A stretch of DNA of 64,000 nucleotides from a virus (lineage: Duplodnaviria; Caudoviricetes): the IMG/VR virus record IMGVR_UViG_3300032221_000294, positions 35,521 through 99,520 of that record; one strand, given 5' to 3'. Positions 7,520 through 47,877 of the stretch are shown here, piece by piece (the stretch's first letter is position 1; the number at the start of each line of letters is the position of its first letter). The notes under the pieces are model-generated. The model was not told the origin of the DNA, ran no database searches, and saw nothing but the letters and a program-made list of their open reading frames with translations. The position numbers and the translations under genes are program-made.

Positions 7520-7578
7520 TACTTATTTTGACGAGATTTCGAGGGGATGTGTTTTCAGTTATAGAAAGTTTTACCCTG

Positions 7579-11883: not shown

Positions 11884-11931
11884 TTGCTAAGGAGCGAGTT
11901 GTGACGCGTAACGACGCTTCTACCTTTTACC

Positions 11932-12093
11932 CTAAAGGTAGGCTCCGCCGATAATCGCGTCTTCGCTCACTTCACCCTTCTCTCGCAGCTTCATGGCCGC
12001 TTCAAGATACAGGTCTGCCTTTTCGCCCAGCTCCTGCCTGCGCTCCTTGTAACGTGACATCAGAGCGATGTACTTCTCGTCGTGTTTACTCAT
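11932..12093 (-). CDS. 53-aa protein coupled to the kinase gene (candidate inhibitor/immunity protein)
   Basis: Manual translation MSKHDEKYIALMSRYKERRQELGEKADLYLEAAMKLREKGEVSEDAIIGGAYL*; ATG overlaps the kinase TGA (TGATG). Confidence 0.7.
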   Translation of the reverse strand: MSKHDEKYIALMSRYKERRQELGEKADLYLEAAMKLREKGEVSEDAIIGGAYL

Positions 12094-13982
12094 CAAACCC
12101 CCTCGTAAAGAATCGAGATGTACTTTTGAGCCTGTTCATTAGTTAGTTTAGTCCAGACCCCCTGCTCGTAAGTCTCCATTGGCGAACGAATTCCGTGATC
12201 CATCACCGTGGCAATGTCGTCTTTGGAGAAACCATCCCGAAGCATCGCGAATTGAACGTCAGCTTTGTTTTGTTGAACTCTGGCGAGAACGGGAGCTTTT
12301 TCTTCGAGGTCTTTTCGTGCCCTTTCTGTTGACACGGGTAGAGCACCAGATTTCAATCTTGACTCGTAAATTTCGAGGAGTCGGCCAGCCGTCCCATCCC
12401 ATCGACGAAGTTGCCAGTCTCCTTGTCCCGCAGCACCCATACCTCTTGTTGCCGAACCACCTTGTGGAGGCATAAACACACCCATCGCTTCGGCCAAAGC
12501 GGCTTTTGGCGAGTCTTGAGCAAGACCCATGTCAACGAAACGGGCTTTACCTTTGCGGTCTACAAGAACGTTGTCGATGTGCATATCATTGTGAGCGATG
12601 CCCATCCGGTGAAGTTTTGCCCTAGCAACCCAATATGCGTCGGCAACTTTGACTCCGCCGATTTCTTTGTCGGGTGCTTTTGAACCGATAGGGCTTCCTG
12701 CAACCACGCTCATCGCCACGCGACCAATTTTCGTACCGGCGTTATACTGCGAGTCACCGTCAAGTTGAGCAGCAAGAAGTTTTGGCCCAAGGTCAACTTT
12801 TCCAAGACGGTCAATCAAGTCGGCTTCAATTTTACCGACTTCGCCCCTCTTGATGGCGTTTCCTTTGTTTGGCTCACGAAGAACGGTCCCGTAAGCACCT
12901 CTTCCGAGAAGTTTTGACCCCGACCCATAGGAATCTTCCCAGCGGTAAGACTTGCTTCCGAGCTCACGGGAAATCCCTTTGTTTATCATGTCACCGTCAT
13001 GATCGCGAGCGTCTTCACGAGCGTAACGAACGTTTCCAGTTGCTTTTGTTTGTGGGCCTTTAATCGCCTCTTCCACAACTTTGAGCCGATCAACCAGCTT
13101 GTTGCGAAGCGCACCCGGTTTTACCTTTTGAACTTGCGATTTTAAGTTATTCCGCAAATTCCAGGCTTCTCCGAGAAGTCCCTCTAAGTCACGTCCAACT
13201 TCCCTACGAGTTAGAGCACCAAGTCCGAGAACGGATTGAAGCTGTGCGACTTGTGATTTGATTTTGACTCGCCCACTATTGTCGTCAATCATCGAGATAT
13301 ATCTCGGCGATTCGCCCTTCAAGAGGCGTGAAATATCATCCATTAAATCCTCGTCGGCCACTGTTCTCTTTACGGGGAGAACCGTCCTTGTTCTTGCGCC
13401 TGGTGACTTATCAAGTTGCCGTGGTGGCAGAACTAACAAAGGCTTCTCGCTCGGGGTTTCTTTTCTGCGAGCTAACTCTCGGTCAATTCTATCTTTGGTA
13501 TCCTGTAACACCTCCTTTTTCCCTGCCGGTGCTACTGAGAGACCTTTTCGGAATTTAACAAGAGCACTCGTATCCCATGCTCCGTACAGCTCGTCGGGTT
13601 GATTTTTTGCGTCGACAGTGGGTTTTTCAAAGGCTCGTTTAAATACATCCCCTAAGTTTGTTTCCGCCTTCGGTGCAGCGGCACCCCTTGCCGGTATAAC
13701 ACCAGCAGCAACTAAACGTCGTTTCAGTTCCCGTGCATCCTCGCCTGCGCGAATGTTCCTGCCAAGTTCCTGACGAAATTCCTTCTTGATTTTTTCAAAT
13801 TGGGCGGCGCCACCGCGCTTTCCGCCCGCAGCAGCGGCTCGGTAGAGTTCAACAACCCCCACCTCATCTGAGGCTTTATTGAGAATGTTATTTACAGCTG
13901 TAGGGAAGTTAAGTCGGCAAGATTTTGCATTGCTGATGCAACCAGCCCCACACGCTTTACTGCGGCTGCACCTTTTTCTCAC
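12093..13982 (-). CDS. Ser/Thr protein kinase with N-terminal Cys4 module and basic linker
   Basis: LGRGAYGTV (Gly loop), AIK, HNDMHIDNVLV (catalytic loop), FVDMG (DFG equivalent); N-terminal RCSRSKACGAGCISNAKSC. Confidence 0.85.
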   Translation of the reverse strand: MRKRCSRSKACGAGCISNAKSCRLNFPTAVNNILNKASDEVGVVELYRAAAAGGKRGGAAQFEKIKKEFRQELGRNIRAGEDARELKRRLVAAGVIPARGAAAPKAETNLGDVFKRAFEKPTVDAKNQPDELYGAWDTSALVKFRKGLSVAPAGKKEVLQDTKDRIDRELARRKETPSEKPLLVLPPRQLDKSPGARTRTVLPVKRTVADEDLMDDISRLLKGESPRYISMIDDNSGRVKIKSQVAQLQSVLGLGALTRREVGRDLEGLLGEAWNLRNNLKSQVQKVKPGALRNKLVDRLKVVEEAIKGPQTKATGNVRYAREDARDHDGDMINKGISRELGSKSYRWEDSYGSGSKLLGRGAYGTVLREPNKGNAIKRGEVGKIEADLIDRLGKVDLGPKLLAAQLDGDSQYNAGTKIGRVAMSVVAGSPIGSKAPDKEIGGVKVADAYWVARAKLHRMGIAHNDMHIDNVLVDRKGKARFVDMGLAQDSPKAALAEAMGVFMPPQGGSATRGMGAAGQGDWQLRRWDGTAGRLLEIYESRLKSGALPVSTERARKDLEEKAPVLARVQQNKADVQFAMLRDGFSKDDIATVMDHGIRSPMETYEQGVWTKLTNEQAQKYISILYEGV

Positions 13983-14491
13983 TTTGCGCTCTCCCGGTAC
14001 TCTTGAAGTTTGGCTTCGAGCTCAGCGATACGGGATCCGACGGACTGAATATGCTCGGAATAGGAATCATCCTGGTTCATAGTCCGATTGTAATCATCCA
14101 TTTGCTTACGGCCAAGATCAAGAGTGGAAAGCTTCGCGTCGAGAGCTTCTTTCGCTTTAATCAGGTCGTGCATTTGCTTCATCTGGGCTTGCAGACCTTT
14201 GAAATTTCCACGCATACGGGAGGTGCGCATCTCGTCTTGAAGCGAGTCAATGCGCATATCAAGCGATTTCTCTTGCTCAGCAAGGCTATCGTATTCCCCA
14301 CCGTCACGAACGTTTTCGGGGAGAATCTCGCCAAAGCGAGAGTTGATCACAGACGTGTTCTCGGGCTCCATAACGGTTCCCCGAGCGTAATCTGTCGGTG
14401 TGTGGGAGTAATCAAGGATCTGATGCCCCCGCTCCGAATAAATTAAATAGGCTTGTTCGATAGCCTTTTCTGAAATGGAGTCTTTCCGCAT
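13979..14491 (-). CDS. Coiled-coil protein, putative internal head protein
   Basis: Heptad-rich; DYAR/SYSE/EYRE motifs; GGGTAAAA upstream. Confidence 0.6.
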   Translation of the reverse strand: MRKDSISEKAIEQAYLIYSERGHQILDYSHTPTDYARGTVMEPENTSVINSRFGEILPENVRDGGEYDSLAEQEKSLDMRIDSLQDEMRTSRMRGNFKGLQAQMKQMHDLIKAKEALDAKLSTLDLGRKQMDDYNRTMNQDDSYSEHIQSVGSRIAELEAKLQEYRESAK

Positions 14492-15034: not shown

Positions 15035-15346
15035 TCACCACTTAACTTTGTTGGCCCAGTAGGAACCAGAGGAAGGACCTTTCGCGATGTTTTTTGCGTG
15101 CCGCGCTTTGAAAGCTTCGCGTCGCGCCTTGTAAGACTCCGACTCACCTTCTTTTTTCGGGGACCCTTTGACGCCAGCTTGACCGAAACGAATCAATTTT
15201 TCCTGACCGTCGTAACACGCTTTGACAACGTGGCTGTGTCCGCCTTGTGTGTCCGCCTGAGGCTTGTTACAAGCCAAGTCTGCCTTTTCGGCGTAGTCTC
15301 TACGAAACCGCTCAAGAACTCCCTCAAAGAAAGACCCCCACATCAA
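15035..15346 (-). CDS. Small basic phage protein (DUF6321-like), putative internal head protein
   Basis: KLIRFGQ.G...RR.AFKARH...YWANKVKW pattern, recalled from phage head-associated proteins. Confidence 0.55.
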   Translation of the reverse strand: MMWGSFFEGVLERFRRDYAEKADLACNKPQADTQGGHSHVVKACYDGQEKLIRFGQAGVKGSPKKEGESESYKARREAFKARHAKNIAKGPSSGSYWANKVKW

Positions 15347-15900
15347 CCTTCCTCCCCGAAGCGAATGAAATCACCGACGCTTGCCAGGGCGACTCCAGCG
15401 TTTGCAATCTTTGTAGCAGCCCACGGAGGCAGATTGTCTTCTTCGTCGAGCATATCGAGCATTATTTCGATCTTTTCTTGCGCAACACGAAGTTGGGTGA
15501 TGATCATCCCGCCATTATTTTCACTGGACTGAAAAATTTCTGAGTAGGAGTTGTCGTTCGCTGAAGCATGCATCGCAAGTTGACCGTTTTTGTTAGCTGC
15601 CCTTTTAATGACTTCCATGCGGGGCATCCGAATCGGAACTCCTTCGTTCATCTGTGGGTTCTTTTCGTCACCTTCGCCTGGCTCTTCGGGCAGAAAGTTC
15701 GGTGTCATTTCTGCTGTGGCGATGTCACCTTCCCCATGTTTTGACTCGAGAGGAACGCAGTTTGGAACTGTTCGTCCGCCTTTCTTCTTCACGCCGACGG
15801 CGTGGTAGCCCTTCCAGCAGGCTTTCTTCAAGCACTCACGAGAATCTTCGGAGAACCCGAAACCTTCGAGTCTCTCCCAATCGTAGTTGTTAGGGTTCAT
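15343..15900 (-). CDS. Two-module putative internal head protein
   Basis: GFSE then CWKGY..VG.KKKGGRTVPNCVP; SYSE then GM..TQL...LDMLDEEDNLPPW..TKI, modules recalled from T4-like cyanophage head proteins. Confidence 0.55.
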   Translation of the reverse strand: MNPNNYDWERLEGFGFSEDSRECLKKACWKGYHAVGVKKKGGRTVPNCVPLESKHGEGDIATAEMTPNFLPEEPGEGDEKNPQMNEGVPIRMPRMEVIKRAANKNGQLAMHASANDNSYSEIFQSSENNGGMIITQLRVAQEKIEIMLDMLDEEDNLPPWAATKIANAGVALASVGDFIRFGEEG

Positions 15901-16908: not shown

Positions 16909-17226
16909 TTAGGGACTCTCCGATTCGTTGGTGGTTTTGCGACGACGAGTTACTTGCTCGACCTCTGCACCGGCAGCAGGTTCTGCGGGAACTAAAAGGG
17001 CCAGCAGGGTAGTTAATGCCAGTTTGCCAGTTTCGGCGAAGCTTGAGTTCGCCTGAGCGCAAACTAAGTTTGTTTTCTCCAGTTCGGCTGGGCTGCTTGA
17101 AAGTTTGAAACAGGTGGCAAACTGTGCGCCAGTGGACGCGAATTGAACTATGAAGATAGCAACGAGGCTTCGAATCAGAAAGCGGCGCTCGTTGAAGCTA
17201 CTCGTAGTCTTCGTCAGCAGGCTCAT
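16909..17226 (-). CDS. Small two-TM membrane protein
   Basis: Two hydrophobic segments and a basic C-terminal tail. Confidence 0.55.
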   Translation of the reverse strand: MSLLTKTTSSFNERRFLIRSLVAIFIVQFASTGAQFATCFKLSSSPAELEKTNLVCAQANSSFAETGKLALTTLLALLVPAEPAAGAEVEQVTRRRKTTNESESP

Positions 17227-17560
17227 TGTCCTCTTCCATTGAGAGTTCGCTTAGAATTTCATTGACAAGGGCGTCAACCTCGTCTTCAGTTAGTTCCTCT
17301 TCCTCGTCGGACTCTTCCTCCTCGTAGTAGGATTCCGGTTGGAAGGGTTGCTTCAGATCGTCATCGGGACCTTTTCCGCTCGGATAGCGCCAAAGGCCAG
17401 TATGCTCGATCCAAGGGGAAGTGTTTGAGATTTCGCCAGCAGGGAGACCGGTTCGGGTGTCCATATCCTGGTCTTCCGGAGTCATCAGTTGAGCGGCATA
17501 CGCAGCGCGGAATGCTTCAACGGCGTCCATGTCGAAATCGCCACCAATTCTGTTGGTCAT
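17198..17560 (-). CDS. Acidic hypothetical protein
   Basis: GGDFDMDAVEAFRAAYA leader-like N-terminus; Glu-rich C-terminus; GGGTAAAA upstream. Confidence 0.6.
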   Translation of the reverse strand: MTNRIGGDFDMDAVEAFRAAYAAQLMTPEDQDMDTRTGLPAGEISNTSPWIEHTGLWRYPSGKGPDDDLKQPFQPESYYEEEESDEEEELTEDEVDALVNEILSELSMEEDNEPADEDYE

Positions 17561-17598: not shown

Positions 17599-18321
17599 TC
17601 AGGCCGCCCCGAAAAACCGGTAATTCCCCTCGTCGTCCTCGTAAATAGATCCCTCGTAAGCGTCTGTCCCCCTAGTAATTGCCTCGACGTCTTTGTCGGT
17701 CCACCCCAACACTTTCTTCAGAACTTTTTTTGGTACCGTAGCTGCAAGATCATCGTAGGAGGCGTTTTTGTCAACGTATTTCTGTAATTTCGGGTGCTCC
17801 ATAACCCTTTCGATGGCCTCGTCAACTCTTGATGGTAATCCAGCCTTGGCGAATTCGCCGAGTGCTTCTTGCTTTCTCTTCTTTCCCGTATCCTTGGTCA
17901 CACCCCCTGGCCCGTAAGTGTTATTTTTATGCCCGTATAGACTTGACTTGTACGCGTCAGCTTCTCTGCGTCTTTCCCTTTCACCGGGCGTCATATTCCC
18001 CCTGGTATCGCCCTTCTTATAAGGTTCACGCGCACGACCAGCAGCGTTCGCTGCGAGTTGGTCATACATGGCTTTTCTTTCAGGTGTTTGATTCTTTTTC
18101 TGACGTGCCAGTTTCGCTGCTCTTTCCGCTACTTTGGCTGCTGCGCCTTTGGTGGATTCTACACCTTTGCGGCATTGCCCTCCCGTGCCGTAGATAGACC
18201 CGTCGGGTCGCATACATCGGGTGAAGTCGTAGCTCTCTCCCTCGGAGAAATCCGCAGATTGTGTTTGTGAAACCATCTCCGAATACTGGAGGAGAGCCTT
18301 TTCTGAGAAAGAACCTAGCAT
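17599..18321 (-). CDS. Putative internal head protein, paralog A
   Basis: GSFSE..L..YSE...QTQSADFSEG..YDFTRC.RPDGS.YGTGG.CRKG.E leader shared with 19140..19835. Confidence 0.7.
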   Translation of the reverse strand: MLGSFSEKALLQYSEMVSQTQSADFSEGESYDFTRCMRPDGSIYGTGGQCRKGVESTKGAAAKVAERAAKLARQKKNQTPERKAMYDQLAANAAGRAREPYKKGDTRGNMTPGERERRREADAYKSSLYGHKNNTYGPGGVTKDTGKKRKQEALGEFAKAGLPSRVDEAIERVMEHPKLQKYVDKNASYDDLAATVPKKVLKKVLGWTDKDVEAITRGTDAYEGSIYEDDEGNYRFFGAA

Positions 18322-18352
18322 GATACTAAAGTAATCTGCTCAAGTTTTACCC

Positions 18353-18799
18353 TTAGCGTTTCTTGATCTTGCCCGAGATATCTTGCCCCATCTTGCTATT
18401 GCCCATGAGCTTTTCTTCGTACTCTTTAACTTCCTTTTTGACATCTGCCTTGAGTTTACCTTCCTGAAGCATTTTTTCCTTCTTAGACTCAAGGATTTCA
18501 GGGTCGTAGGGGGCATTCTTCTCTCGCTCTTTCTTCGCCTTTTCCTTGCCCTTCTGCATTGTTTTCGCAGTTTGCTCACGCTTGGCAAGTTCTTCTTTGT
18601 GAACGAGTTTCCCTTCTTCGTCAAACTTGTGGTCTTTTGGAAGCTCGGGGGGAGTGTACTCTTGGTGAATTTCCTGCGCCAGGCGATCAAGAAGTTGGTC
18701 GTACGAGTCACGCAGGCGCCGTCTGCAAACGCCGGCAGCAGCCACAGTCATCGGGCCACAGGGAATCCTGTGCTGAGTAATTTCTTCGAGTGCGTTCAT
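18353..18799 (-). CDS. Lys/Glu-rich protein, putative internal head protein
   Basis: Likely start MNALEE; CGPMTVAAAGVCRR motif. Confidence 0.55.
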   Translation of the reverse strand: MNALEEITQHRIPCGPMTVAAAGVCRRRLRDSYDQLLDRLAQEIHQEYTPPELPKDHKFDEEGKLVHKEELAKREQTAKTMQKGKEKAKKEREKNAPYDPEILESKKEKMLQEGKLKADVKKEVKEYEEKLMGNSKMGQDISGKIKKR

Positions 18800-18800
18800 G

Positions 18801-19136
18801 TTAGGCTCCTTTTCTTTGGCGAATGCGACCGTCGTTGTGCTCGTCGTAGTGAACTCCCTTCCTCTTTTCCTTGCGGGGGTTTGAGTCCTGACGATTTGTT
18901 TCCCGCATCGACTGAACCATTGTGTCGCGCATGTTGCGAAGTTGCTCACGCGGCAGAGTGCAATGATCGCTGTCACGATAGGAACGATACCAGCGGCAAA
19001 CTTCCGACGGGTCGTCAGCCTGGAGCATCATATTCCACACCCCGAGTGCTTGCGCATCGGCTAGGGTGCCAGGCTTGAGTTTGGCCTCAATTTCGTGCCG
19101 CTCGGGGCGATTGAATCGGGTGTCTTTGCGCATCAC
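18801..19136 (-). CDS. Hypothetical protein
   Basis: 111-aa ORF tiling the cluster. Confidence 0.6.
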   Translation of the reverse strand: MMRKDTRFNRPERHEIEAKLKPGTLADAQALGVWNMMLQADDPSEVCRWYRSYRDSDHCTLPREQLRNMRDTMVQSMRETNRQDSNPRKEKRKGVHYDEHNDGRIRQRKGA

Positions 19137-19139
19137 TGA

Positions 19140-19835
19140 TCAGAGTTTTCCTATTTGCCATTTAATACCGACGTCACTAGTCCACGGATGCACGACTGTA
19201 TATCCGTCTTTGGTTTTCTTTACTTGAAAATTATCGCCTCCTTGCTTCTTATTAAGAGCGTTAGCAAGCTCTTGAGCTTTGTTTTTGGGGAAAATTAAAG
19301 AATCGGACGAACGCTCTGACGAAGTTCCTTTTGAACTCTTCTGTCCCTTACCCGCAAGCTGAGCCAGAGCATTTTTAGCATAGCGGGAAAAGGAACCTTT
19401 GGCCCCATCTTCTTGATAACGATCTGAAGCATTATCGAGAGCACTAACGAGTTTTTGTTTTTGTTCGGGGTTTAATTTTAGGCCCAGTGCTTTTTCTAAC
19501 TTGGGTGCGAGTGTCTCCCCGGCATACCCAGGGGTGGAATCTGACTCTCCGTCCTCAAAGGCCATAAACGCTTTGTCCCAAGCCTTATACAAACCATCTA
19601 CGATTTTGGCAGCATCTTTCTTTGGTCCACCCGACGCTCTCTTCGCTTTTTCTTCAATTTCTTTAGCGCCTTCCGTGCCCTTTCGGCATTTACCCCCAGT
19701 GCCATACGCCGACCCGTCGGGTCTCACGCAACGGGTGAAGTCGTAGGTATATCCTTCAGAGAAATCCGCAGCTTGAGTCTGAGCCGCAAGTTCTGCGAAG
19801 TGACGCAAAGCGTCTTCAGAAAAATGACCGTTCAT
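19140..19835 (-). CDS. Putative internal head protein, paralog B
   Basis: Start MNGHFSE, 22 nt after GGGTAAAA; same leader as 17599..18321 with an unrelated C-terminus. Confidence 0.7.
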   Translation of the reverse strand: MNGHFSEDALRHFAELAAQTQAADFSEGYTYDFTRCVRPDGSAYGTGGKCRKGTEGAKEIEEKAKRASGGPKKDAAKIVDGLYKAWDKAFMAFEDGESDSTPGYAGETLAPKLEKALGLKLNPEQKQKLVSALDNASDRYQEDGAKGSFSRYAKNALAQLAGKGQKSSKGTSSERSSDSLIFPKNKAQELANALNKKQGGDNFQVKKTKDGYTVVHPWTSDVGIKWQIGKL

Positions 19836-19872
19836 GGCTGTAAAATAATATACAAGTTTTACCCCCTTGGTG

Positions 19873-21720
19873 TTACAAATCTGCGATTTGTTGAAGTACC
19901 TCGTCTTGAATGTCTTTGATCTTCGGCGCAAGGAAATCAATTAACCCTGTCCTCGTTGAATACTGCGTTTCTCGAACTCTATTTCCTTTGTATTTTTCTT
20001 CGTTTAAGTCGAGAAGTTTCCTCTGAGCCCCGCTCAAAATTGAGCCCATCTTCATCAAACCCCCGTTATCTCCCTTTTCCTGGAGCTCAGCGACTTTATC
20101 CGCTAGAGCTTTACCGACGGACGCGCCTCCTACATCTTTTCCGTACCAGTACAGAGGTTTGGGCACAGAACGTAAACTCCCCTCCTTGGCTGACTGGATT
20201 CCAATAGCAACGGTTCGTGACGAATCTGTCCACGCGGAGACAACTTTACCCATTAGATTTGCCCGGTCTCCCGCGTTAAGCTCATTAGTGGGGATAAGGG
20301 CAATAGACGCTAACGCTTTTTGAGGATCTAGAATCTTGTCTAAGATGTCATCCCCGATTGTTTTCTTTGCTGAGTTTATTTCTTCCCGTTTTTCGTGGAA
20401 AAGTTTACCGTCTTCCGTGAGTTTTCCGTTTCCGTCAAAAGTTATCATCCGTGGCTTACCCGAGGTCTTTGAGGTGTTGGTGTTGAACCAACCTGCGGTG
20501 TTAGTTGTTAGCAGGTAATCCGGACTGCCTTCCCCTTTCCCTCGGTTTATTCGAGAGTTTGTTAACGACCAGTTGTTCCCGATATTGGCATTTGCACCTG
20601 CGACCCCCGCTGGTATCAAGTGCTCTAAGTCCACGCTCAACAAATTCAGTTTCTCCCCCGTGTATACGTCCTTGAATCCTGACTCCATAGCGATCTTCAT
20701 AATTAAGAAAGATTTTGCCTTATCCTCCTCTGCTTTTGACATCTTCTTCCCCGAGGGAATTACGTCTCCCTTCGGAGTTACAGATCTGTAGGATCCAGGA
20801 ATTTCTGAACTTCCCGCACTCTTCAGATAGGTGAAAACTTGGGGGGGCATCAGACCCATCATAAAATGGACCTCTGAGTCTTTGACGTCCTGATTTCTGT
20901 ACCATTTTGCGAAAGGTTCTAGTGCCTTGGAAAATTCTTCAGGGTTCTTATATTTACCTGTCTTATAGTTGTCATAGACACTCGTAAGTTCTTTAAATTT
21001 GTCTTGACGCTCTTTCGAGGCCATTCGTTCTATGCCCTCGTTAGAAACAACTGGGGCTACATCTTTCCTCCCGTATAAGACGTCAAAAGCCTGACTCACC
21101 ATGTCCCGCATTTTTTGCCTGCGCTCTTTAGGGTCGGGGTAATCTTTGGTTAAGCCGTTGATCCCCTCCCGAAGAAAAGAAGTCCTTTCTTTCAACTCAG
21201 TTTGAACTTTCCCCGTTCTAAATTCTTTTGGCAGGGTGTCTTCCGCCAGTTTTCCTTTCACAAGCGAGTTAGAGAAACCTGTGTATTGTTTAAATCGTTT
21301 TGCGGCTTCAGCGGTGGTCAAGTTTCCTTGAGCAATTTCTGATTTCAAGTAATTTCGTACTTTAGTGACTTCTCCTGAAATTTCTGCAGGTAACTGCAGG
21401 ATGCAGTCGTTGCGGTAGAAAATGCAGGAAGCCCCACAAGATTTACCTTTCTTACACCGGTCACGTTTTGCGGAGAAGCTTTTTCTTTGAGCTGCCGCAT
21501 TCATTGCGCTCTCTTTCTTCGCTTCTGTGATCACTTTCTTTCCCCCGTCAGACGTCTTTTTAGGGGACCCACCTGTTTGAGGGGAAGCCGCTGGTTTACC
21601 GGGCAGAGGTGAAGATTCACCTACAATCCCTTGTCTTTGCCCAAGGCGCTCTACTTTTGCATCATCCCCTTGCATATTGCGGGAGTCTGCAAAATCAAAC
21701 CAGCGATACTTACTTCCCAT
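19873..21720 (-). CDS. Large basic protein with Cys4 module and HNH nuclease domain
   Basis: RCKKGKSCGASCIFYRNDC; DVYTG...DLEHLIP...NNWSLTNSRINRGKG (HNH). Confidence 0.7.
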   Translation of the reverse strand: MGSKYRWFDFADSRNMQGDDAKVERLGQRQGIVGESSPLPGKPAASPQTGGSPKKTSDGGKKVITEAKKESAMNAAAQRKSFSAKRDRCKKGKSCGASCIFYRNDCILQLPAEISGEVTKVRNYLKSEIAQGNLTTAEAAKRFKQYTGFSNSLVKGKLAEDTLPKEFRTGKVQTELKERTSFLREGINGLTKDYPDPKERRQKMRDMVSQAFDVLYGRKDVAPVVSNEGIERMASKERQDKFKELTSVYDNYKTGKYKNPEEFSKALEPFAKWYRNQDVKDSEVHFMMGLMPPQVFTYLKSAGSSEIPGSYRSVTPKGDVIPSGKKMSKAEEDKAKSFLIMKIAMESGFKDVYTGEKLNLLSVDLEHLIPAGVAGANANIGNNWSLTNSRINRGKGEGSPDYLLTTNTAGWFNTNTSKTSGKPRMITFDGNGKLTEDGKLFHEKREEINSAKKTIGDDILDKILDPQKALASIALIPTNELNAGDRANLMGKVVSAWTDSSRTVAIGIQSAKEGSLRSVPKPLYWYGKDVGGASVGKALADKVAELQEKGDNGGLMKMGSILSGAQRKLLDLNEEKYKGNRVRETQYSTRTGLIDFLAPKIKDIQDEVLQQIADL

Positions 21721-42626: not shown

Positions 42627-43106
42627 TCAGGCGAAGCTGACAAGAGCGAACTTGCGACCGCCGATTCCGATTTGCTCGCGAATCAGAGGAGTGGTGCCGT
42701 CCAGGGTGACGGGGGTGCCGTCGCCAACGCCAACAGCTTGACCCAGATCGTTAATTTCGAGTTGGGTGTTGAGGGTCAGATCGGTTAGAGTTGCAGCAGG
42801 AGCAACTTCAACCAACAGAAGACCGGAAGTAGCAACGGTCAGCTGACGAGCGGTGTAAGGCTGAGCCAGAGCGGTAGGCATATAAGCCTGGTTGATACCA
42901 ACGATGGTGTCTACGCCGCCGGGGGTAGTGAAAGCATCTGGGGCAGCAGCGAAGTTAGGGCCAGCCCAGGTAGCGTAAGAAACGGCGCGGAATTCGCCGA
43001 TTTCAACAACACCGGGATCGCCATCTTGATTGTCAGCAGGAGCTTCGAAAGTTTCTGCGTAACGGATGTACTGGCGGCCATATACGGGACCTGCGTTTGT
43101 AGCCAT
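42627..43106 (-). CDS. Capsid cement/decoration protein (DUF2190-like)
   Basis: TVATSGLLLVE...INDLGQAV; lies between the scaffold module and the capsid gene. Confidence 0.65.
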   Translation of the reverse strand: MATNAGPVYGRQYIRYAETFEAPADNQDGDPGVVEIGEFRAVSYATWAGPNFAAAPDAFTTPGGVDTIVGINQAYMPTALAQPYTARQLTVATSGLLLVEVAPAATLTDLTLNTQLEINDLGQAVGVGDGTPVTLDGTTPLIREQIGIGGRKFALVSFA

Positions 43107-43193: not shown

Positions 43194-43847
43194 TTATCGG
43201 TAGTCGATGCTACACCGGCAACGGTCGTAGCATTGACATTCTTTGCCTGGCATAGGGAGGGTACCCATCGGTTGCCAGCCAAGTCGGCCAAACATAACGC
43301 AATCAGGGCAAGTTCGTGAGTCGAGTTTTGGAACTCGCATCATTTCCTGGTATCCCTGATCTTGTCGAACGTAGTACTGGCCGAGATTGAAGAAAGAGTA
43401 TGAAGGGTTAGCTAAGTAACGAACAACACGAACCAGCAACCCAGGCCAACTCTTAACTTCGCTGAAATCTTGTGTCTTGTCGCCCAACAGAATTCCTCCG
43501 TTGTCGAGTGCGTCTTTTGTTTCAACCAAAAATTCTTGAAGCGGAGGGAGCATTTCGCCGACGATTGTGGGCCATGCCCGCTCCATCTTGCCACGAGGGT
43601 TGATATCTTCGGCGCCGAGGTTGACAGCGGCAAGCGCAGAGATGAGAGTTTTGTCGAGTAACGACCTCTCGTACTCATCCCACCTCATTTGCTTATCTCG
43701 AAGACCTTTCACCAAAACTTTCGACTCCTGAGTCATGCGCTCTTCAAGCTCGGCTTGAGAATTCACTTTCTTTCGAAGAGCCTCGGCTTGGGTGAAGTAA
43801 TCTCCCCTCCGTTTCGTGGCCATGCCAATCAGAGAGAGGAGATCCAT
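43194..43847 (-). CDS. Head morphogenesis protein (MuF/SPP1 gp7-like, no toxin extension)
   Basis: DSRTCPDC...GWQP.G.LP.PG.ECQCYDRCRC. Confidence 0.75.
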   Translation of the reverse strand: MDLLSLIGMATKRRGDYFTQAEALRKKVNSQAELEERMTQESKVLVKGLRDKQMRWDEYERSLLDKTLISALAAVNLGAEDINPRGKMERAWPTIVGEMLPPLQEFLVETKDALDNGGILLGDKTQDFSEVKSWPGLLVRVVRYLANPSYSFFNLGQYYVRQDQGYQEMMRVPKLDSRTCPDCVMFGRLGWQPMGTLPMPGKECQCYDRCRCSIDYR

Positions 43848-43855
43848 TTCAAACC

Positions 43856-46255
43856 TCAGTTGTACATTGTGCGCTTGATAGCTTCGACGTAGTCAATCCC
43901 TTCGGACTCGACCATCTTCAGAGCTTTTGCGTGAGGATCCAGATCTTCCTCGGCAAACTGGAAGGTTCCGCCAGCGATCTCACCGTAGGAAACCATCGAA
44001 GGAAGCTTGCTCAGAAGGCCAAGCAGTTTCGTGGCAGCCGTTTCACCCTCGGAGAACTCCAGGGTTCCGAAGTCAAGACCTTCGCAGTAGCTTTGAAGCT
44101 CGGACTGAGGCATAATGCCGTCGGTCAGGCGACCATCTTCGTAGATAGACTCAACGAACGAGGCGATTTTCGCTTTGCGAGCGTTCATCTTCTCTTCAGC
44201 GAAGCGGCGCTGGAGTTCGGAATGCTCTTTCTTCAGGCGATCCAGCTCCTCGAAGATGGCGGAGGGGAAACCGTCTGGCTTGGCTTGGGCCATTGAACCC
44301 ATGCCGTAGTCCATACCGCAGTGGTCAGAGGAAAGCTCGTTGAAGTCTTCCTCCTCGTCACCTTCACCGTCTTCGTCGTAAGTTGAACCGAACCCAGTTT
44401 TGGTGTAAGGGTTCTTCTTCTCGCCGTGCTCTTCAGCGAACACACCTCCTGAACGCTTCGTCTTCTGGTTAGGGCCACCGTCAAAGTCGCCGCTCAGATT
44501 GTCCTCGGCGAATGCACCGTCGGGACCAACAACTTGGGCAGCCTCGTCGATTTCATCCATCGCACCGGGAGTAAGTTGCTTCTTAGAAGATTTCTTCTCA
44601 CCTTCGCAATCCTCAGAGAACACACCGCCGGGTCCGGTGATTTCAGCCACACCGCCTTCGAAATGACCGGGTTCCAGTTGACCTTTCTTGACTTTGGCTT
44701 TGCCTTGCGTCAGGTCGTCCACTTCGCCCATGGCAGTTACGCCCAGCTCAGAAGTTGTCTCATCCGCTTCAGGCTCAGCGTAGTTGATCTTACCGCCCTT
44801 GGTGGCTTGACGTCCGGTGCTGCTTGTCTGACGCATTACGCGCATACTTCCGTCTGACATAACGTTGATGGTGTTCACGGCGAACACTTCGTTGTCAGGA
44901 GATTCTTCAGTTTCGGTGGGAATCTTGGTGTCAGCATCTGCGCGGCCAGCAGGGTTTGAACCGGAGGCAGTCTTAGGCTGATTGGGCTCAGGGTAGCTGT
45001 CAGCGTCGGTGTCGTATTGATCACCGTTCATGGTGCGATCTTCACCATCAGCTTGACCCGCCCAGCGAGATTCACCAGTTGCGTTATCTGAACCGTCTTT
45101 GGCAGTTTTCTTCCGGTCGGAATCTTGCTCAGAGTTCTTAGAAGAGCTGACGCGATCGGCCTCCTGCTCTCCACTCTTGGCGGTGTTCATGCGGTCGTCG
45201 CCAACGCCGCTTTTGCCTTCTTTACCGGTCTTCATGCGGTCGGCGTAACCGTTGTCAGACGAACGAGCTGTGTCATAGCGACCAGTCTCGTCATAATTCA
45301 TTTCGTCGCCTTCTTCCATTTCGACCTTTTCGCCAGGGTTAGCCTTGGCTTTGGCCTTCATTTCTTCGGCTTTCTTTCTGAGTGCCGGGGGCAGCTCTTT
45401 GTGTTGTTCGTCGTAGACATTTTCTACAACTTGAACTACTTGGCCGTGGGCACCTTTGGCGTGCTTACGGCTGATTTTTCCGTCTTCCATAAATTGTTCC
45501 TCTGGGAATTGGTCTTCAAGTTCAGCCGTCTGCTGAGTGATTTCGTTGGTTTTGATGCCAGGCTTGGTTTGTTTTCTGCCTTCGGTGAATTGTTGGTTTT
45601 CCCCGGAGTTGGCTTTTTCAGCTGGAGCTTCTGCACCAGCCGCTTGATCCACGTTGGTATCCTGTTGAGTGTCGCTTGCTTCTTGAAGATCTTTGACAGC
45701 GGATGAAACATCTTGTCGAACTTCTTCAAGTTTTTCGCGGAGAATCTCAAGGGGGCTCTTTTCAACGATCAAGGTTGGCCCAAGTTCGTCGTCAAAGATT
45801 TGATCCGGGGACAAAGTTACAGCGAAGTCAAAACACCCTTCCGCCTCATTAAATGAGAAAGGTTCGAGTCCTTTAACCGCAGGTGGTGATGCCCCCAACA
45901 AGGCCAGGTGCCTTGCGCTCCATTTCCCCCCGTGCGGGTTGATTTGGCTGTCCGGAGAATAGAAGGAAATCGATACTTTCCTGTAGTGACCATTCTTGAC
46001 TAACTCTTTTGCTGTGTCTGAAAAGGAGACATCAGCATAAAGGTTTTGTCCTTCTCTTGAAAATCCTTGGATCCACCCGAAAGAAGGCAAACTGTCGTTA
46101 TCCCCCTGGTGGCCAAGAACTATAGGAGCTTCATGGATCGAGGGGTCGTATGTGTCGACAACTTGTTGAAGATCGTCTGGAGAGAATGTCCGCTTAATTC
46201 CTTGAGCAGAGGTTTGATCACCCGCACGAAATACGTGAATTCTTTTAGTGAACAC
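43856..46255 (-). CDS. Mu gpI-like prohead protease fused to a long scaffold
   Basis: IHVFRAG, HEAPIVLGH, GWI, YRKVSISFY, HLALLGASPPAVKGL; acidic linker; C-terminal DYVEAIK. Confidence 0.88.
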   Translation of the reverse strand: MFTKRIHVFRAGDQTSAQGIKRTFSPDDLQQVVDTYDPSIHEAPIVLGHQGDNDSLPSFGWIQGFSREGQNLYADVSFSDTAKELVKNGHYRKVSISFYSPDSQINPHGGKWSARHLALLGASPPAVKGLEPFSFNEAEGCFDFAVTLSPDQIFDDELGPTLIVEKSPLEILREKLEEVRQDVSSAVKDLQEASDTQQDTNVDQAAGAEAPAEKANSGENQQFTEGRKQTKPGIKTNEITQQTAELEDQFPEEQFMEDGKISRKHAKGAHGQVVQVVENVYDEQHKELPPALRKKAEEMKAKAKANPGEKVEMEEGDEMNYDETGRYDTARSSDNGYADRMKTGKEGKSGVGDDRMNTAKSGEQEADRVSSSKNSEQDSDRKKTAKDGSDNATGESRWAGQADGEDRTMNGDQYDTDADSYPEPNQPKTASGSNPAGRADADTKIPTETEESPDNEVFAVNTINVMSDGSMRVMRQTSSTGRQATKGGKINYAEPEADETTSELGVTAMGEVDDLTQGKAKVKKGQLEPGHFEGGVAEITGPGGVFSEDCEGEKKSSKKQLTPGAMDEIDEAAQVVGPDGAFAEDNLSGDFDGGPNQKTKRSGGVFAEEHGEKKNPYTKTGFGSTYDEDGEGDEEEDFNELSSDHCGMDYGMGSMAQAKPDGFPSAIFEELDRLKKEHSELQRRFAEEKMNARKAKIASFVESIYEDGRLTDGIMPQSELQSYCEGLDFGTLEFSEGETAATKLLGLLSKLPSMVSYGEIAGGTFQFAEEDLDPHAKALKMVESEGIDYVEAIKRTMYN

Positions 46256-46282
46256 AGTCTATAAGGGATCTGATAACATTTT

Positions 46283-47680
46283 TTACCCTTCTTCTTCAGC
46301 GATCTGAATTTCCTGCTGATCTGCCGATTCCTCTGCAGGTAGAGCAGTTTCATCAACCGCAACTCCACTTTCATCTCCAAAAATTGAACCAAACAGGTCC
46401 TGATCTTCCTCAGGGTTGAAGGTCGTTGCTGAAGCGGTGTCAGCCGGCCCACCACTCTCTTTCTTATCGTCCAGTTCAACGCGGAAGTGCCGCTCTATCC
46501 ATTCTTTCTTTGGTGTGAAACCAGATTGAATGAGCAGAGAAACGTCCGGCATTGTTAGAGTTGACTCCTCAATCCGAAATTCTCGTGTGAGAACGGGAGC
46601 AGCAACGTCAGTTCCGAAGTTCAGATCGACGATCCACCGAACAAGAGTTTGCGTGAGATTCTGTGAGATAATCTCAGAAAGTTCCGACGCTTTGACAATT
46701 CTAACAACGTTCGCAACTTGAGAGGAAGCACGAGAGCCAGCCTCGGCTTGACCTGCTTCATTCTCCCCACACAGTAGAACGCTAATTTCTTTGTCAATAT
46801 AATCGATCAGATTCTTGAACACGTCAGGGCTTCCGGTTGGTGTCACGAAGTCTAACTCGTAACCTTCCGGAAGAATCATCGCCGTTTCTTGGCTCAGGTT
46901 GGAAAGGTGATCGTACAGGGTATCGATTTCTTTCGTGCTTGCGCTCAAAGGTGCTTTCGCAACTGCGGTGGGTGTAGCATACCGGTCCCCATAAAGAACG
47001 TACGACTCAATCGCCCTGCGACGAAATTTGACGAGTGGGTACAGAATGCGGCCCAAAGATGAGCCGTAGGGGTCACCGTTGTGAGACACCCAGTAGCGGT
47101 TAACGATGAATTTGCGCGTCGGAAGCTCCACACCCTCGAACATTCGGTTGAATGTCAGGCAACGCATTGTGAATCCCGTCTGAGCATTCTCCTGTTCCTG
47201 GAAAACGAAGCGACGCTGATCACGCATACGAACGTCAAACGGAACCACGCCCCTTTTCGTCTTTTTCCACATCACTTCTCCAACGGAGAAGCCGGTGATA
47301 ATTGCTTCGGCTAAACCTTTATAGATCTCATCTAGAGGGATTTCTTCAAGAACTTCGCTTACAAAATCCCTTACGGCAATGTCGCCCGGTTTATCGCTGT
47401 ATTGCTCGACGTACCATGGGCGAGACGTAACTTCTTGAACAAGTTTGGCGAAACAGCCTTGAACCTGCTCGTCGTAAAGAAGGCGCTGATATACAACTAG
47501 GGCGCGGTTCCCGCCCTTTTGAATGAGGAGATCGTCGTTTGGTCTGACGATTGTGTTACCTTGACCAGTGAACGGGCTGCTAGACCCGAACATGTAAATC
47601 GAAGATAAATTATAGGGATCAGAAGTATAACGTGCTACTTCTCCCGATGGCACTGGGGCTGTTTTGAATCTTTGAGCCAT
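46283..47680 (-). CDS. Portal protein (DUF935/Mu gp29-like)
   Basis: DEQVQG...SRPW, AIITGFSVGEVMW, DPYGSSL.R.LY, IDYIDKEIS..LCG, GSRA. Confidence 0.9.
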   Translation of the reverse strand: MAQRFKTAPVPSGEVARYTSDPYNLSSIYMFGSSSPFTGQGNTIVRPNDDLLIQKGGNRALVVYQRLLYDEQVQGCFAKLVQEVTSRPWYVEQYSDKPGDIAVRDFVSEVLEEIPLDEIYKGLAEAIITGFSVGEVMWKKTKRGVVPFDVRMRDQRRFVFQEQENAQTGFTMRCLTFNRMFEGVELPTRKFIVNRYWVSHNGDPYGSSLGRILYPLVKFRRRAIESYVLYGDRYATPTAVAKAPLSASTKEIDTLYDHLSNLSQETAMILPEGYELDFVTPTGSPDVFKNLIDYIDKEISVLLCGENEAGQAEAGSRASSQVANVVRIVKASELSEIISQNLTQTLVRWIVDLNFGTDVAAPVLTREFRIEESTLTMPDVSLLIQSGFTPKKEWIERHFRVELDDKKESGGPADTASATTFNPEEDQDLFGSIFGDESGVAVDETALPAEESADQQEIQIAEEEG

Positions 47681-47697: not shown

Positions 47698-47877
47698 CTA
47701 GTCCTTATTGATAGTTTTACCCTCGACGGAGTCTGGAAAATTCTGCGAGATGTAATTTTCTAACTTTTCCAGGATCCGAGAATATTCGTCGTAAAGGCTT
47801 TCGCTTGACGTTTGGCCCATGTAATTTCGGCAAGCCGAGATTAACCGGTAGATATCTTTTTCTTGTAATGAGTACAT
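47698..47877 (-). CDS. 59-aa hypothetical protein
   Basis: Manual translation MYSLQEKDIYRLISACRNYMGQTSSESLYDEYSRILEKLENY...; TAATG coupling; missed by the track. Confidence 0.6.
   Translation of the reverse strand: MYSLQEKDIYRLISACRNYMGQTSSESLYDEYSRILEKLENYISQNFPDSVEGKTINKD

What the first reader, a model, noticed from the sequence alone, without database searches (positions are those of the whole stretch)
17599..19835. Paralog pair with a conserved ~55-aa leader and swapped C-termini
Seen: 17599..18321 and 19140..19835 align closely over G[SH]FSE..L..[YF][SA]E...QTQ.ADFSEG..YDFTRC.RPDGS.YGTGG.CRKG.E, then diverge completely. Each has its own GGGTAAAA 22-24 nt upstream. Both keep the 13-nt near-palindrome GACCCGTCGGGTC (18197-18209; 19711-19723). 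Weaker versions of the leader start 15035 (GSFFEGVLERF..DYAE) and 17198 (GDFDMDAVEAF..AYA). Inference: a portable promoter + capsid-targeting cassette into which new cargo is recombined.
Basis: partly seen in the sequence, partly recalled or inferred. Interest (0 to 1): 0.7.

Follow-up and report, generated by a model that had tools for sequence, protein, structure and literature searches.

The report
Shared head-loading tag on phage proteins
Two neighbouring genes of a large uncultured cyanophage-like virus begin with the same undescribed ~55-residue tag, carried by hundreds of unrelated viral proteins, which most likely loads them into the phage head for delivery into the next host, while the part behind the tag is swapped by recombination.

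Summary
The two minus-strand genes share 39 of 58 N-terminal residues and nothing after that. The shared part is a real module: an acidic helix, a [DN]F[SA]E junction and a basic two-cysteine hairpin (YDFTRC.RPDG..YGT.G.CRKG.E).

- It is absent from Pfam, PHROGs and NCBIfam, yet 377 metagenomic cluster representatives match it at E<=1e-10.
- It has 4 copies in this 46%-complete record and 15 in a near-complete 277-kb relative.
- Cargo exchange is shown directly. Two relatives are 96-100% identical through the upstream gene, promoter and tag, then 57% identical from just after CRKG to the stop codon.
- GGGTAAAA is the genome-wide promoter, also used by portal, protease and tail genes. It is not part of a cassette.
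- The 13-nt palindrome is only the RPDGS codons.

Head loading is inferred, not shown. The supports are the shared promoter, the concentration of [FY][SA]E in the protease-scaffold, and basic cargo that includes ADP-ribosyltransferases and kinases. In addition, the only tag-bearing enzyme of the cultured relative S-CBWM1 (NMNAT gp39) is reported in its virion proteome.

The scan has noted the same family on other genomes. I class it as a new variant of a known kind.

The parts
17599..18321 (-). Gene A, 240 aa: tag (residues 1-58), basic low-confidence helical stretch (59-160), small folded C-terminal domain (about 161-240)
   Evidence: ORF. Homologues P0001, P0003 and P0005. AF2 pLDDT is about 80 for residues 161-240 and below 50 for 95-160. 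No Pfam, PHROG or NCBIfam hit.
18241..18321 (-). A pro-region (residues 1-27): acidic amphipathic helix with three [FY][SA]E motifs (FSE 5-7, YSE 13-15, FSE 25-27). Proposed removable propeptide.
   Evidence: AF2 gives a helix at 7-20 and a low-confidence linker at 21-30. Family-wide net charge is -4.3.
18157..18231 (-). A two-Cys hairpin core (residues 31-55, YDFTRC..CRKGVE)
   Evidence: D, C, G, YG, G, C and KG are invariant across 50 sequences. AF2 gives three short strands. Net charge is +3.2.
18345..18352 (-). GGGTAAAA promoter-like motif of A, starting right after the stop codon of the upstream gene
19140..19835 (-). Gene B, 231 aa: tag (1-58) plus unrelated cargo made of two modules (about 63-157 and 162-230; the second is repeated in P0062 and L013)
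   Evidence: The orthologue in the closest relative is 230 aa.
19755..19835 (-). B pro-region (residues 1-27) with FSE, FAE and FSE
19671..19745 (-). B two-Cys hairpin core (residues 31-55)
19857..19864 (-). GGGTAAAA promoter-like motif of B
18197..18209 (.). 13-nt near-palindrome in A. It is the codons of R-P-D-G-S, with no independent role found.
19711..19723 (.). The same near-palindrome in B
43856..46255 (-). Mu gpI-like prohead protease fused to an acidic scaffold-like tail. Proposed enzyme that cuts after [FY][SA]E.
   Evidence: phrog_976 at 2e-67 and PF10123. It has 7 [FY][SA]E against 0.9 expected. Homologues have 5-7 each, with a conserved GTLEF[SA]EGE.

Best explanation
A and B are two members of a large, virus-restricted family of basic proteins that share an N-terminal loading module.

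Shown:
- The module has three parts: an acidic helix (M.G.FSEEAL..[FY][SA]E...), a [DN]F[SA]E junction and a basic two-cysteine hairpin (YDFTRC.RP[DN]G..YGT.G.CRKG.E).
- It heads many unrelated cargos, including ADP-ribosyltransferases, protein kinases and a cytidylyltransferase/NMNAT, but mostly small basic proteins of unknown fold.
- Its genes carry the same GGGTAAAA promoter-like motif as the portal, protease and tail genes.
- Cargo is exchanged by recombination, with breakpoints at the end of the tag and at the stop codon or next promoter.

Inferred:
- The proteins are made late and the hairpin docks them inside the assembling head.
- The Mu-gpI-like prohead protease cuts after [FY][SA]E, removing the acidic helix and leaving the basic hairpin at the new N-terminus of a basic protein, which lies with the DNA and enters the next host with it.
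- The conserved tag DNA and the conserved promoter of the next gene act as homology arms for the cargo exchange.
For: Family and architecture:
- 877 cluster representatives match at E<=1e-3 and 377 at E<=1e-10. The core starts near residue 31 in most.
- 63 viral loci carry it, with several copies per contig.
- Copy number is 15 in a 98%-complete 277-kb genome, 10, 8, 6 and 3 in four fragments, and 4 in this record.
- Among 185,579 prokaryote species there are only 5 hits, all on short MAG contigs.

Cargo:
- ADP-ribosyltransferase in 11 of 150, plus kinases, a cytidylyltransferase and a RIO kinase.
- Cargo is basic, median +6.3 per 100 aa.

Cleavage-site inference:
- 150 of 191 cores have [FY][SA]E within 12 residues upstream, against a background of 0.6%, and 114 share one spacing. 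17 of 30 internal cores have it too.
- The motif is counted 48 times in the record against 22 expected. It is concentrated in the protease-scaffold (7 against 0.9) and in the tagged proteins.
- It persists in fast-evolving scaffold linkers of five relatives and of S-CBWM1.
- It sits in the low-confidence linker of the AF2 model.

Late co-expression:
- GGGTAAAA occurs 28 times against 1.75 expected, before portal, protease and tail genes as well as A and B.
- The same holds in cultured S-CBWM1, before sheath, portal, peptidase and the tagged gp39.

Virion presence:
- S-CBWM1 has a single cytidylyltransferase/NMNAT gene, gp39, and it carries the core.
- Two papers report, citing Xu et al. 2018, that an NMNAT was detected in the S-CBWM1 virion proteome (PMC9602691; PMC10665884).

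Recombination:
- (Fisher p 2e-46 and 1e-12).
- Gene A is replaced by a GIY-YIG-like ORF in the closest relative.
Against: - No direct evidence that A, B or any [FY][SA]E-bearing member is in a virion or is cleaved.
- The virion report for gp39 is second-hand, because the primary paper is not held. Purified virion preparations can carry abundant non-packaged proteins.
- gp39 has the hairpin but no [FY][SA]E, so packaging would not depend on the cleavage motif.
- The fixed 4-residue spacing between E and the core could mean the motif is part of the fold rather than a cleavage site.
- The timing of GGGTAAAA transcription is inferred from the genes behind it, not measured.
- Two cysteines cannot build a zinc site alone, and no structural relative was found, so what the hairpin binds is unknown.
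Confidence: 0.55

Rival explanations
1. The module is not a packaging signal. It is a domain that works in the infected cell and is shared by many phage enzymes, for example by docking them on one host or phage partner (DNA, RNA polymerase, ribosome, membrane) or by making them oligomerise.
For: The hairpin is basic and extremely conserved, as expected for binding one fixed partner. The cargos are host-modifying enzymes that would also be useful if simply expressed.
Against: The genes share the promoter motif of portal, protease and tail genes rather than a separate early signal. The tagged NMNAT of S-CBWM1 is reported in virions. The coupling to a motif that is otherwise concentrated in the protease-scaffold is unexplained by this reading.
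Confidence: 0.2
2. The module is a head-loading tag but is never cleaved. The [FY][SA]E junction is a structural part of the domain, and the whole 55 residues stay on the packaged protein.
For: The spacing between E and the core is fixed in 114 of 150 cases. Members with only 7-16 residues before the core, and gp39, lack the motif yet keep the hairpin.
Against: The junction is the least confident part of the AF2 model. The same FSEGE-like string recurs in the scaffold tail, where it is kept while the surrounding sequence changes. Internal cores in two-core proteins are also preceded by it, as expected if polyproteins are cut into hairpin-headed pieces.
Confidence: 0.15
3. Plain duplication and divergence: A and B are tandem paralogues whose C-termini drifted beyond recognition, with no cargo exchange.
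For: A and B lie 1.5 kb apart. Their leaders are old (68% nucleotide identity). The alignments used for hhalign are shallow.
Against: There are sharp identity steps at the tag/cargo junction in both directions. L006 against L007: flanks 96-100%, cargo 57% plus a 294-nt indel. Own genome against L006: flanks 85-89%, cargo 96%. 28 leader-identical pairs have unrelated cargo. The cargos include different enzyme superfamilies.
Confidence: 0.05
4. The conserved DNA (the palindrome GACCCGTCGGGTC and the leader) is a nucleic-acid signal such as a protein-binding site, recombination site or RNA hairpin.
For: There are two exact copies in the window against 0.16 expected. The recombination breakpoints lie within 40 nt downstream of it.
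Against: It is exactly the codons of RPDGS. In 76 related copies the palindrome arms are never longer than 3 nt, while the peptide is kept with varied codons. The closest homologues of A read RPNG and lose the symmetry.
Confidence: 0.02

Closest known systems
Phage T4 capsid targeting sequence (CTS) proteins IPI, IPII, IPIII and Alt, processed by prohead protease gp21 (established knowledge; Mullaney and Black 1996, cited in PMC10052503; Alt described in PMC5512222)
   Same: A short N-terminal leader is shared by otherwise unrelated proteins and ends in a Glu-containing protease motif. The proteins are basic, are made with the head genes, are packed with the DNA and are injected. One cargo class is an ADP-ribosyltransferase.
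   Different: There is no sequence similarity. The T4 CTS is about 10 residues with no cysteine hairpin. The T4 site is L/I-x-E and the protease is gp21, whereas here the protease is Mu gpI-like (PF10123). Here the most conserved part, the hairpin, would stay on the mature protein. Loading and cleavage are untested here.
Propeptide-bearing ejection and inner-body protein paralogue families of giant phages phiKZ, 201phi2-1 and SPN3US, processed by gp175/gp245 (PMC10052503, PMC5694885)
   Same: Large genomes; multi-member paralogue families of head-internal proteins; N-terminal propeptides holding several copies of the protease motif ending in Glu; a scaffold-like protein cut at the same motif.
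   Different: The protease lineage and motif differ. No shared sequence was seen: Pfam and PHROGs gave no family for the tag. Those paralogues are homologous along their length, whereas here only the tag is shared and the cargo is swapped.
Polymorphic toxin systems and polyvalent proteins of phages and conjugative elements (Iyer, Burroughs and Aravind 2017, PMC5512222)
   Same: A constant N-terminal trafficking part with variable C-terminal effector domains (ART, kinase and others), exchange by recombination, and proposed delivery with the invading DNA.
   Different: Here there are many small single-cargo genes rather than giant multidomain proteins. There is no MuF-type head domain in the tagged proteins and no linked immunity gene. 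The tag itself was not found in the passages of that paper that I searched.
Encapsulin cargo-loading peptides (established knowledge)
   Same: A short portable peptide directs diverse enzymes into an HK97-fold shell.
   Different: Those peptides are C-terminal, are not cleaved, and the shell is not a virus. There is no sequence relation.

Membership tests
Phage internal/ejected head proteins with an N-terminal targeting propeptide (T4 CTS / phiKZ type) | The same N-terminal leader on otherwise unrelated proteins of one phage | tested here: met
   There are 4 copies in this record and 15 in a near-complete relative, with unrelated C-termini.
Phage internal/ejected head proteins with an N-terminal targeting propeptide (T4 CTS / phiKZ type) | Leader removed by the prohead protease at a consensus site also used in the scaffold | tested here: inconclusive
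   [FY][SA]E is coupled to the core (150/191) and enriched in the protease-scaffold of six phages. No cleavage data exist.
Phage internal/ejected head proteins with an N-terminal targeting propeptide (T4 CTS / phiKZ type) | Protein physically present in purified virions | not testable with these tools
   Literature only. The NMNAT of S-CBWM1 is reported in the virion proteome (PMC9602691, PMC10665884). I showed that its only NMNAT gene, gp39, carries the core. Nothing is known for A or B.
Phage internal/ejected head proteins with an N-terminal targeting propeptide (T4 CTS / phiKZ type) | Co-expression with head genes | tested here: inconclusive
   A, B, portal, protease and tail genes share the GGGTAAAA motif. 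Timing was not measured.
Phage internal/ejected head proteins with an N-terminal targeting propeptide (T4 CTS / phiKZ type) | Sequence homology to the T4 CTS or phiKZ propeptides | tested here: not met
   No Pfam, PHROG or NCBIfam family matches the leader. tblastn against 50,697 phage records finds the leader only in S-CBWM1.
Polymorphic toxin-like modular effectors | Constant N-terminal part, unrelated C-terminal parts, recombination breakpoints at the junction | tested here: met
Polymorphic toxin-like modular effectors | Cognate immunity gene directly downstream of each effector | tested here: not met
   The gene after A (17198-17560, acidic) has its own promoter and is kept in the closest relative, where A is absent.
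Zinc ribbon / zinc knuckle | Four metal ligands (Cys/His) in one module | tested here: not met
   Only two invariant Cys and no conserved His in 50 and in 150 aligned sequences.
Zinc ribbon / zinc knuckle | Matching fold | tested here: inconclusive
   AF2 gives three short strands at pLDDT about 71. Foldseek against the PDB gives nothing at E<=0.001.

The most novel reading that the evidence does not exclude
The two-cysteine hairpin is a new, general capsid-loading (and perhaps ejection or redox-switched) tag of a clade of large cyanophage-like viruses. Together with the conserved promoter of the next gene it serves as a homology arm. Each phage therefore keeps an array of up to about 15 virion-delivered effectors whose payloads are continually exchanged between phages. 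That would be a capsid-borne counterpart of polymorphic toxin systems.
Probability: 0.4. Interest if true: 0.75.

Novelty: new variant of a known kind. Interest (0 to 1): 0.62.

Why it matters
If the tag loads proteins into the head, it defines the set of proteins these abundant aquatic phages inject with their DNA. That set includes ADP-ribosyltransferases, kinases and NAD-pathway enzymes, besides many unknowns. It would turn a long list of hypothetical genes into candidates for first-minute host takeover or counter-defence. It would also give a simple sequence rule for finding such proteins in metagenomes, and a portable peptide for loading foreign proteins into a capsid. The mapped breakpoints show how the payload repertoire evolves. 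A cultured relative (S-CBWM1 on Synechococcus CBW1002) makes all of this testable.

Tried and rejected
I used the search for related loci instead.
- blastn of the region against 50,697 phage records found no match.
- The profile handed to the exhaustive HMM search kept the C-terminal columns of P0007 (306 positions). A few of the 877 hits may therefore be ADP-ribosyltransferases without a tag. 133 of the 153 sequences inspected do carry the core.
- Foldseek with the leader model found nothing.
- VIA-align with the full-length A model gave only generic helical matches at Z about 6 on the low-confidence half.
- The ESM Atlas gave nothing usable for A, and only TM<0.35 for B cargo.
- A word-based search with A residues 160-240 returned only close orthologues.
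- The weak hit of A cargo to S-CREM1 ORF219 could not be tied to that phage's virion proteome.
- The primary S-CBWM1 paper (Xu et al. 2018) is not held.
- Rejected readings: signal peptide or lipobox (no hydrophobic stretch, and the residues before the Cys do not fit); RiPP precursor (the cargos are enzymes and 100-700-aa proteins); a functional palindrome; a cassette-specific promoter.
Full report
**Setting**

The window is bases 35521-99520 of a 99.5-kb IMG/VR virus record that CheckV rates 46% complete. Almost all genes are on the minus strand. The window encodes:
- a large terminase, a portal, a Mu-gpI-like prohead protease with a long acidic tail, a major capsid protein and a tail tube protein;
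- PhoH, a protein kinase and an HNH-like protein.

Relatives found later reach 277 kb (98% complete). The only cultured relative is Synechococcus phage S-CBWM1.

**The observation**

- Genes A (17599-18321, minus, 240 aa) and B (19140-19835, minus, 231 aa) share 39 of 58 N-terminal residues (E 9e-27) and nothing after that.
- hhalign of small alignments of the two C-terminal parts gives probability 0.5%.
- At DNA level the leaders are 68% identical, and 19 of the 39 conserved residues use different codons. These are old copies kept by selection on the peptide.
- The 'weaker versions' at 15035 and 17198 are not detected by an HMM of the helix part. They remain pattern-level resemblances, with some support from the closest relative's homologue of 17198.

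**What the leader is**

It has three parts:
- Residues 1-27 form an acidic helix (AF2 helix 7-20), M.G.FSEEAL..[FY][SA]E.
- A low-confidence linker ends in [DN]F[SA]E.
- Residues 31-55 form a basic hairpin of three short strands with invariant D, C, G, YG, G, C and KG.

Family-wide, the pro-region has net charge -4.3 and the core +3.2.

The record holds four cores: A, B and two more outside the window.
- In one of those two, the helix and the core are separated by a 70-residue P/Q linker.
- In the other, the core follows a DUF6496 domain.

The parts are therefore separable.

**Size and spread of the family**

- No Pfam, PHROG or NCBIfam model matches the leader.
- An exhaustive profile search finds 877 cluster representatives at E<=1e-3 and 377 at E<=1e-10. 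The core starts near residue 31 in most, and 12 of 133 proteins have two cores.
- A scan of IMG/VR gives 63 loci, several per contig.
- Copy number is 15 in the near-complete 277-kb genome, with eight copies inside 15 kb.
- Among 185,579 prokaryote species' genomes there are only five hits, all on short MAG contigs of unrelated taxa. These are most likely mis-binned virus.

**Cargo**

- Most cargos have no known domain.
- The recognisable ones are ADP-ribosyltransferases (11 of 150), protein-kinase-like and RIO kinases, and a cytidylyltransferase/NMNAT.
- Cargo is strongly basic, median +6.3 per 100 residues.
- A has a basic, poorly predicted middle and a confident about 80-residue C-terminal domain.
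- B has two modules, the second of which is repeated in other family members.
- Neither cargo could be assigned a function.

**Cargo exchange is shown directly**

- Loci L006 (240-aa protein) and L007 (142-aa protein) come from different metagenomes. They are 95.7% identical in the upstream gene, 100% in stop codon, promoter and 5' UTR, and 98.1% in leader codons 1-53.
- Identity then drops to 57%, with a 294-nt indel, from just after TGCCGCAAAGG (C-R-K-G) to the stop codon. It returns to 92% at the next promoter (Fisher p 2e-46).
- The reverse pattern appears between this genome and L006: flanks 85-89%, cargo 96% (p 1e-12).
- Across the family, 104 pairs have leaders at least 85% identical. 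In 28 of them the cargos have no detectable similarity.
- In the closest relative (protease 92% identical) gene A, together with its promoter, is replaced by a 192-aa GIY-YIG-like ORF. The homology ends exactly at the stop codon of the upstream gene.

**What is not part of a cassette**

- GGGTAAAA occurs 28 times on the coding strand against 1.75 expected, with no conserved -35 element. It lies 20-50 nt before portal, protease, tail-fibre-sized and many other genes.
- A sigma-70-like gene lies next to tagged genes here and in the 277-kb relative.
- The palindrome is the codon string of RPDGS. In 76 related copies the arms never exceed 3 nt.

**Why head loading is the best reading (inference)**

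1. Host-modifying enzymes sit behind the promoter motif used by head and tail genes. The same is true in S-CBWM1, where the motif precedes sheath, portal, peptidase and the tagged gp39.
2. [FY][SA]E precedes 150 of 191 cores against a background of 0.6%, including 17 of 30 internal cores.
   - In this record the motif is twice as frequent as expected, and it is concentrated in the protease-scaffold (7 against 0.9) and the tagged proteins.
   - Five relatives and S-CBWM1 keep 4-7 copies in the scaffold tail, some in linkers that otherwise change freely.
   - All keep GTLEF[SA]EGE, which resembles the leader's DFSEGE.
   - This is the pattern described for T4 and for SPN3US/phiKZ, where propeptides and scaffold share a Glu-ending protease motif (PMC10052503).
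3. S-CBWM1 has one NMNAT gene, gp39, and it carries the core. Two papers state, citing Xu et al. 2018, that an NMNAT was detected in its virion proteome.
4. The cargo is basic, like the internal proteins that travel with DNA.

Because gp39 and other members with very short N-termini lack the helix and the motif, the hairpin is the more likely docking element. The acidic helix is more likely a removable mask. This step is my inference.

**Limits**

- Nothing here shows cleavage or packaging of A or B.
- The virion report is second-hand.
- The fixed spacing of the motif could be structural.
- The partner of the hairpin is unknown.
- Two Cys without His cannot form a zinc site in one chain. A disulfide or an intermolecular site is possible but untested.

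**Earlier notes of the scan**

Other first readers flagged the same tag, the 4-Cys tag and the promoter in this genome. A follow-up on another genome reached a similar reading. I re-derived each point here and did not use those notes as evidence.

**Verdict**

This is an undescribed tag family that works like the T4 and phiKZ propeptide-directed internal proteins, combined with polymorphic-effector-style cargo exchange: a new variant of a known kind.

Noticed in passing
window 12093-13982 (-) and 19873-21720 (-); L005:5835-6791 and the region upstream of L005:4980: A second tag, a four-Cys motif (C..GK[SA]CG..C[IV].....C), heads the 629-aa kinase and lies near residue 88 of the 615-aa HNH-like protein. 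S-CBWM1 gp162 (APH-like kinase) starts with it. The frame upstream of the annotated start of gp161 (ChoK-like kinase) encodes it too, so that start is probably mis-called. Both kinases are reported in S-CBWM1 virions (PMC10665884). The HNH-like protein is a homologue (E 6e-18) of S-CBWM1 gp174, annotated 'virion structural protein'.
   Followed up: partly
window-wide, e.g. 47715-47722, 46281-46288, 11925-11932, 7569-7576; sigma-like gene at L004:2062-2841: GGGTAAAA occurs 28 times on the coding strand against 1.75 expected, with no -35 element, before structural and tagged genes. The record and a 277-kb relative encode a sigma-70-like protein next to tagged genes.
   Followed up: partly
L009:7491-8069 and L009:3622-4107 (closest relative): Where this genome has gene A, the relative has a GIY-YIG-like ORF. 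It also has an extra 161-aa HNH ORF between PhoH and the 615-aa protein. Homing-endonuclease-like genes mark the variable spots of this cluster.
   Followed up: partly
window 42627-43106 (-); L081:2400-2915: The small protein between protease and major capsid protein keeps QYIR[YF]AE at residues 12-18 in this phage and in S-CBWM1 gp172. This is a candidate short propeptide ending in the same motif.
   Followed up: no
window 13979-14491 (-); L050:5617-6459: The 170-aa coiled-coil protein that overlaps the start of the kinase is, in another phage, fused in one frame to EFSE, a two-Cys core and cargo. This suggests that split and fused (polyprotein) forms interconvert.
   Followed up: no
window 43194-43847 (-): A 217-aa protein between protease and capsid genes ends in a Cys-rich string (C.DC ... 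C.C..C.C). From memory, this recalls MuF/SPP1 gp7-type minor head proteins. Pfam gave no hit.
   Followed up: no
window 15343-15900 (-): A 185-aa protein has another two-Cys motif (CWKGY...VPNC) that matches six PHROG families of unknown function (E down to 9e-9). This may be a third small Cys module of this gene cluster.
   Followed up: no
window 17198-17560 (-): A 120-aa extremely acidic protein (runs of E and D) has its own GGGTAAAA. It is conserved in the relative that lacks gene A, so it is not an A-specific partner.
   Followed up: partly
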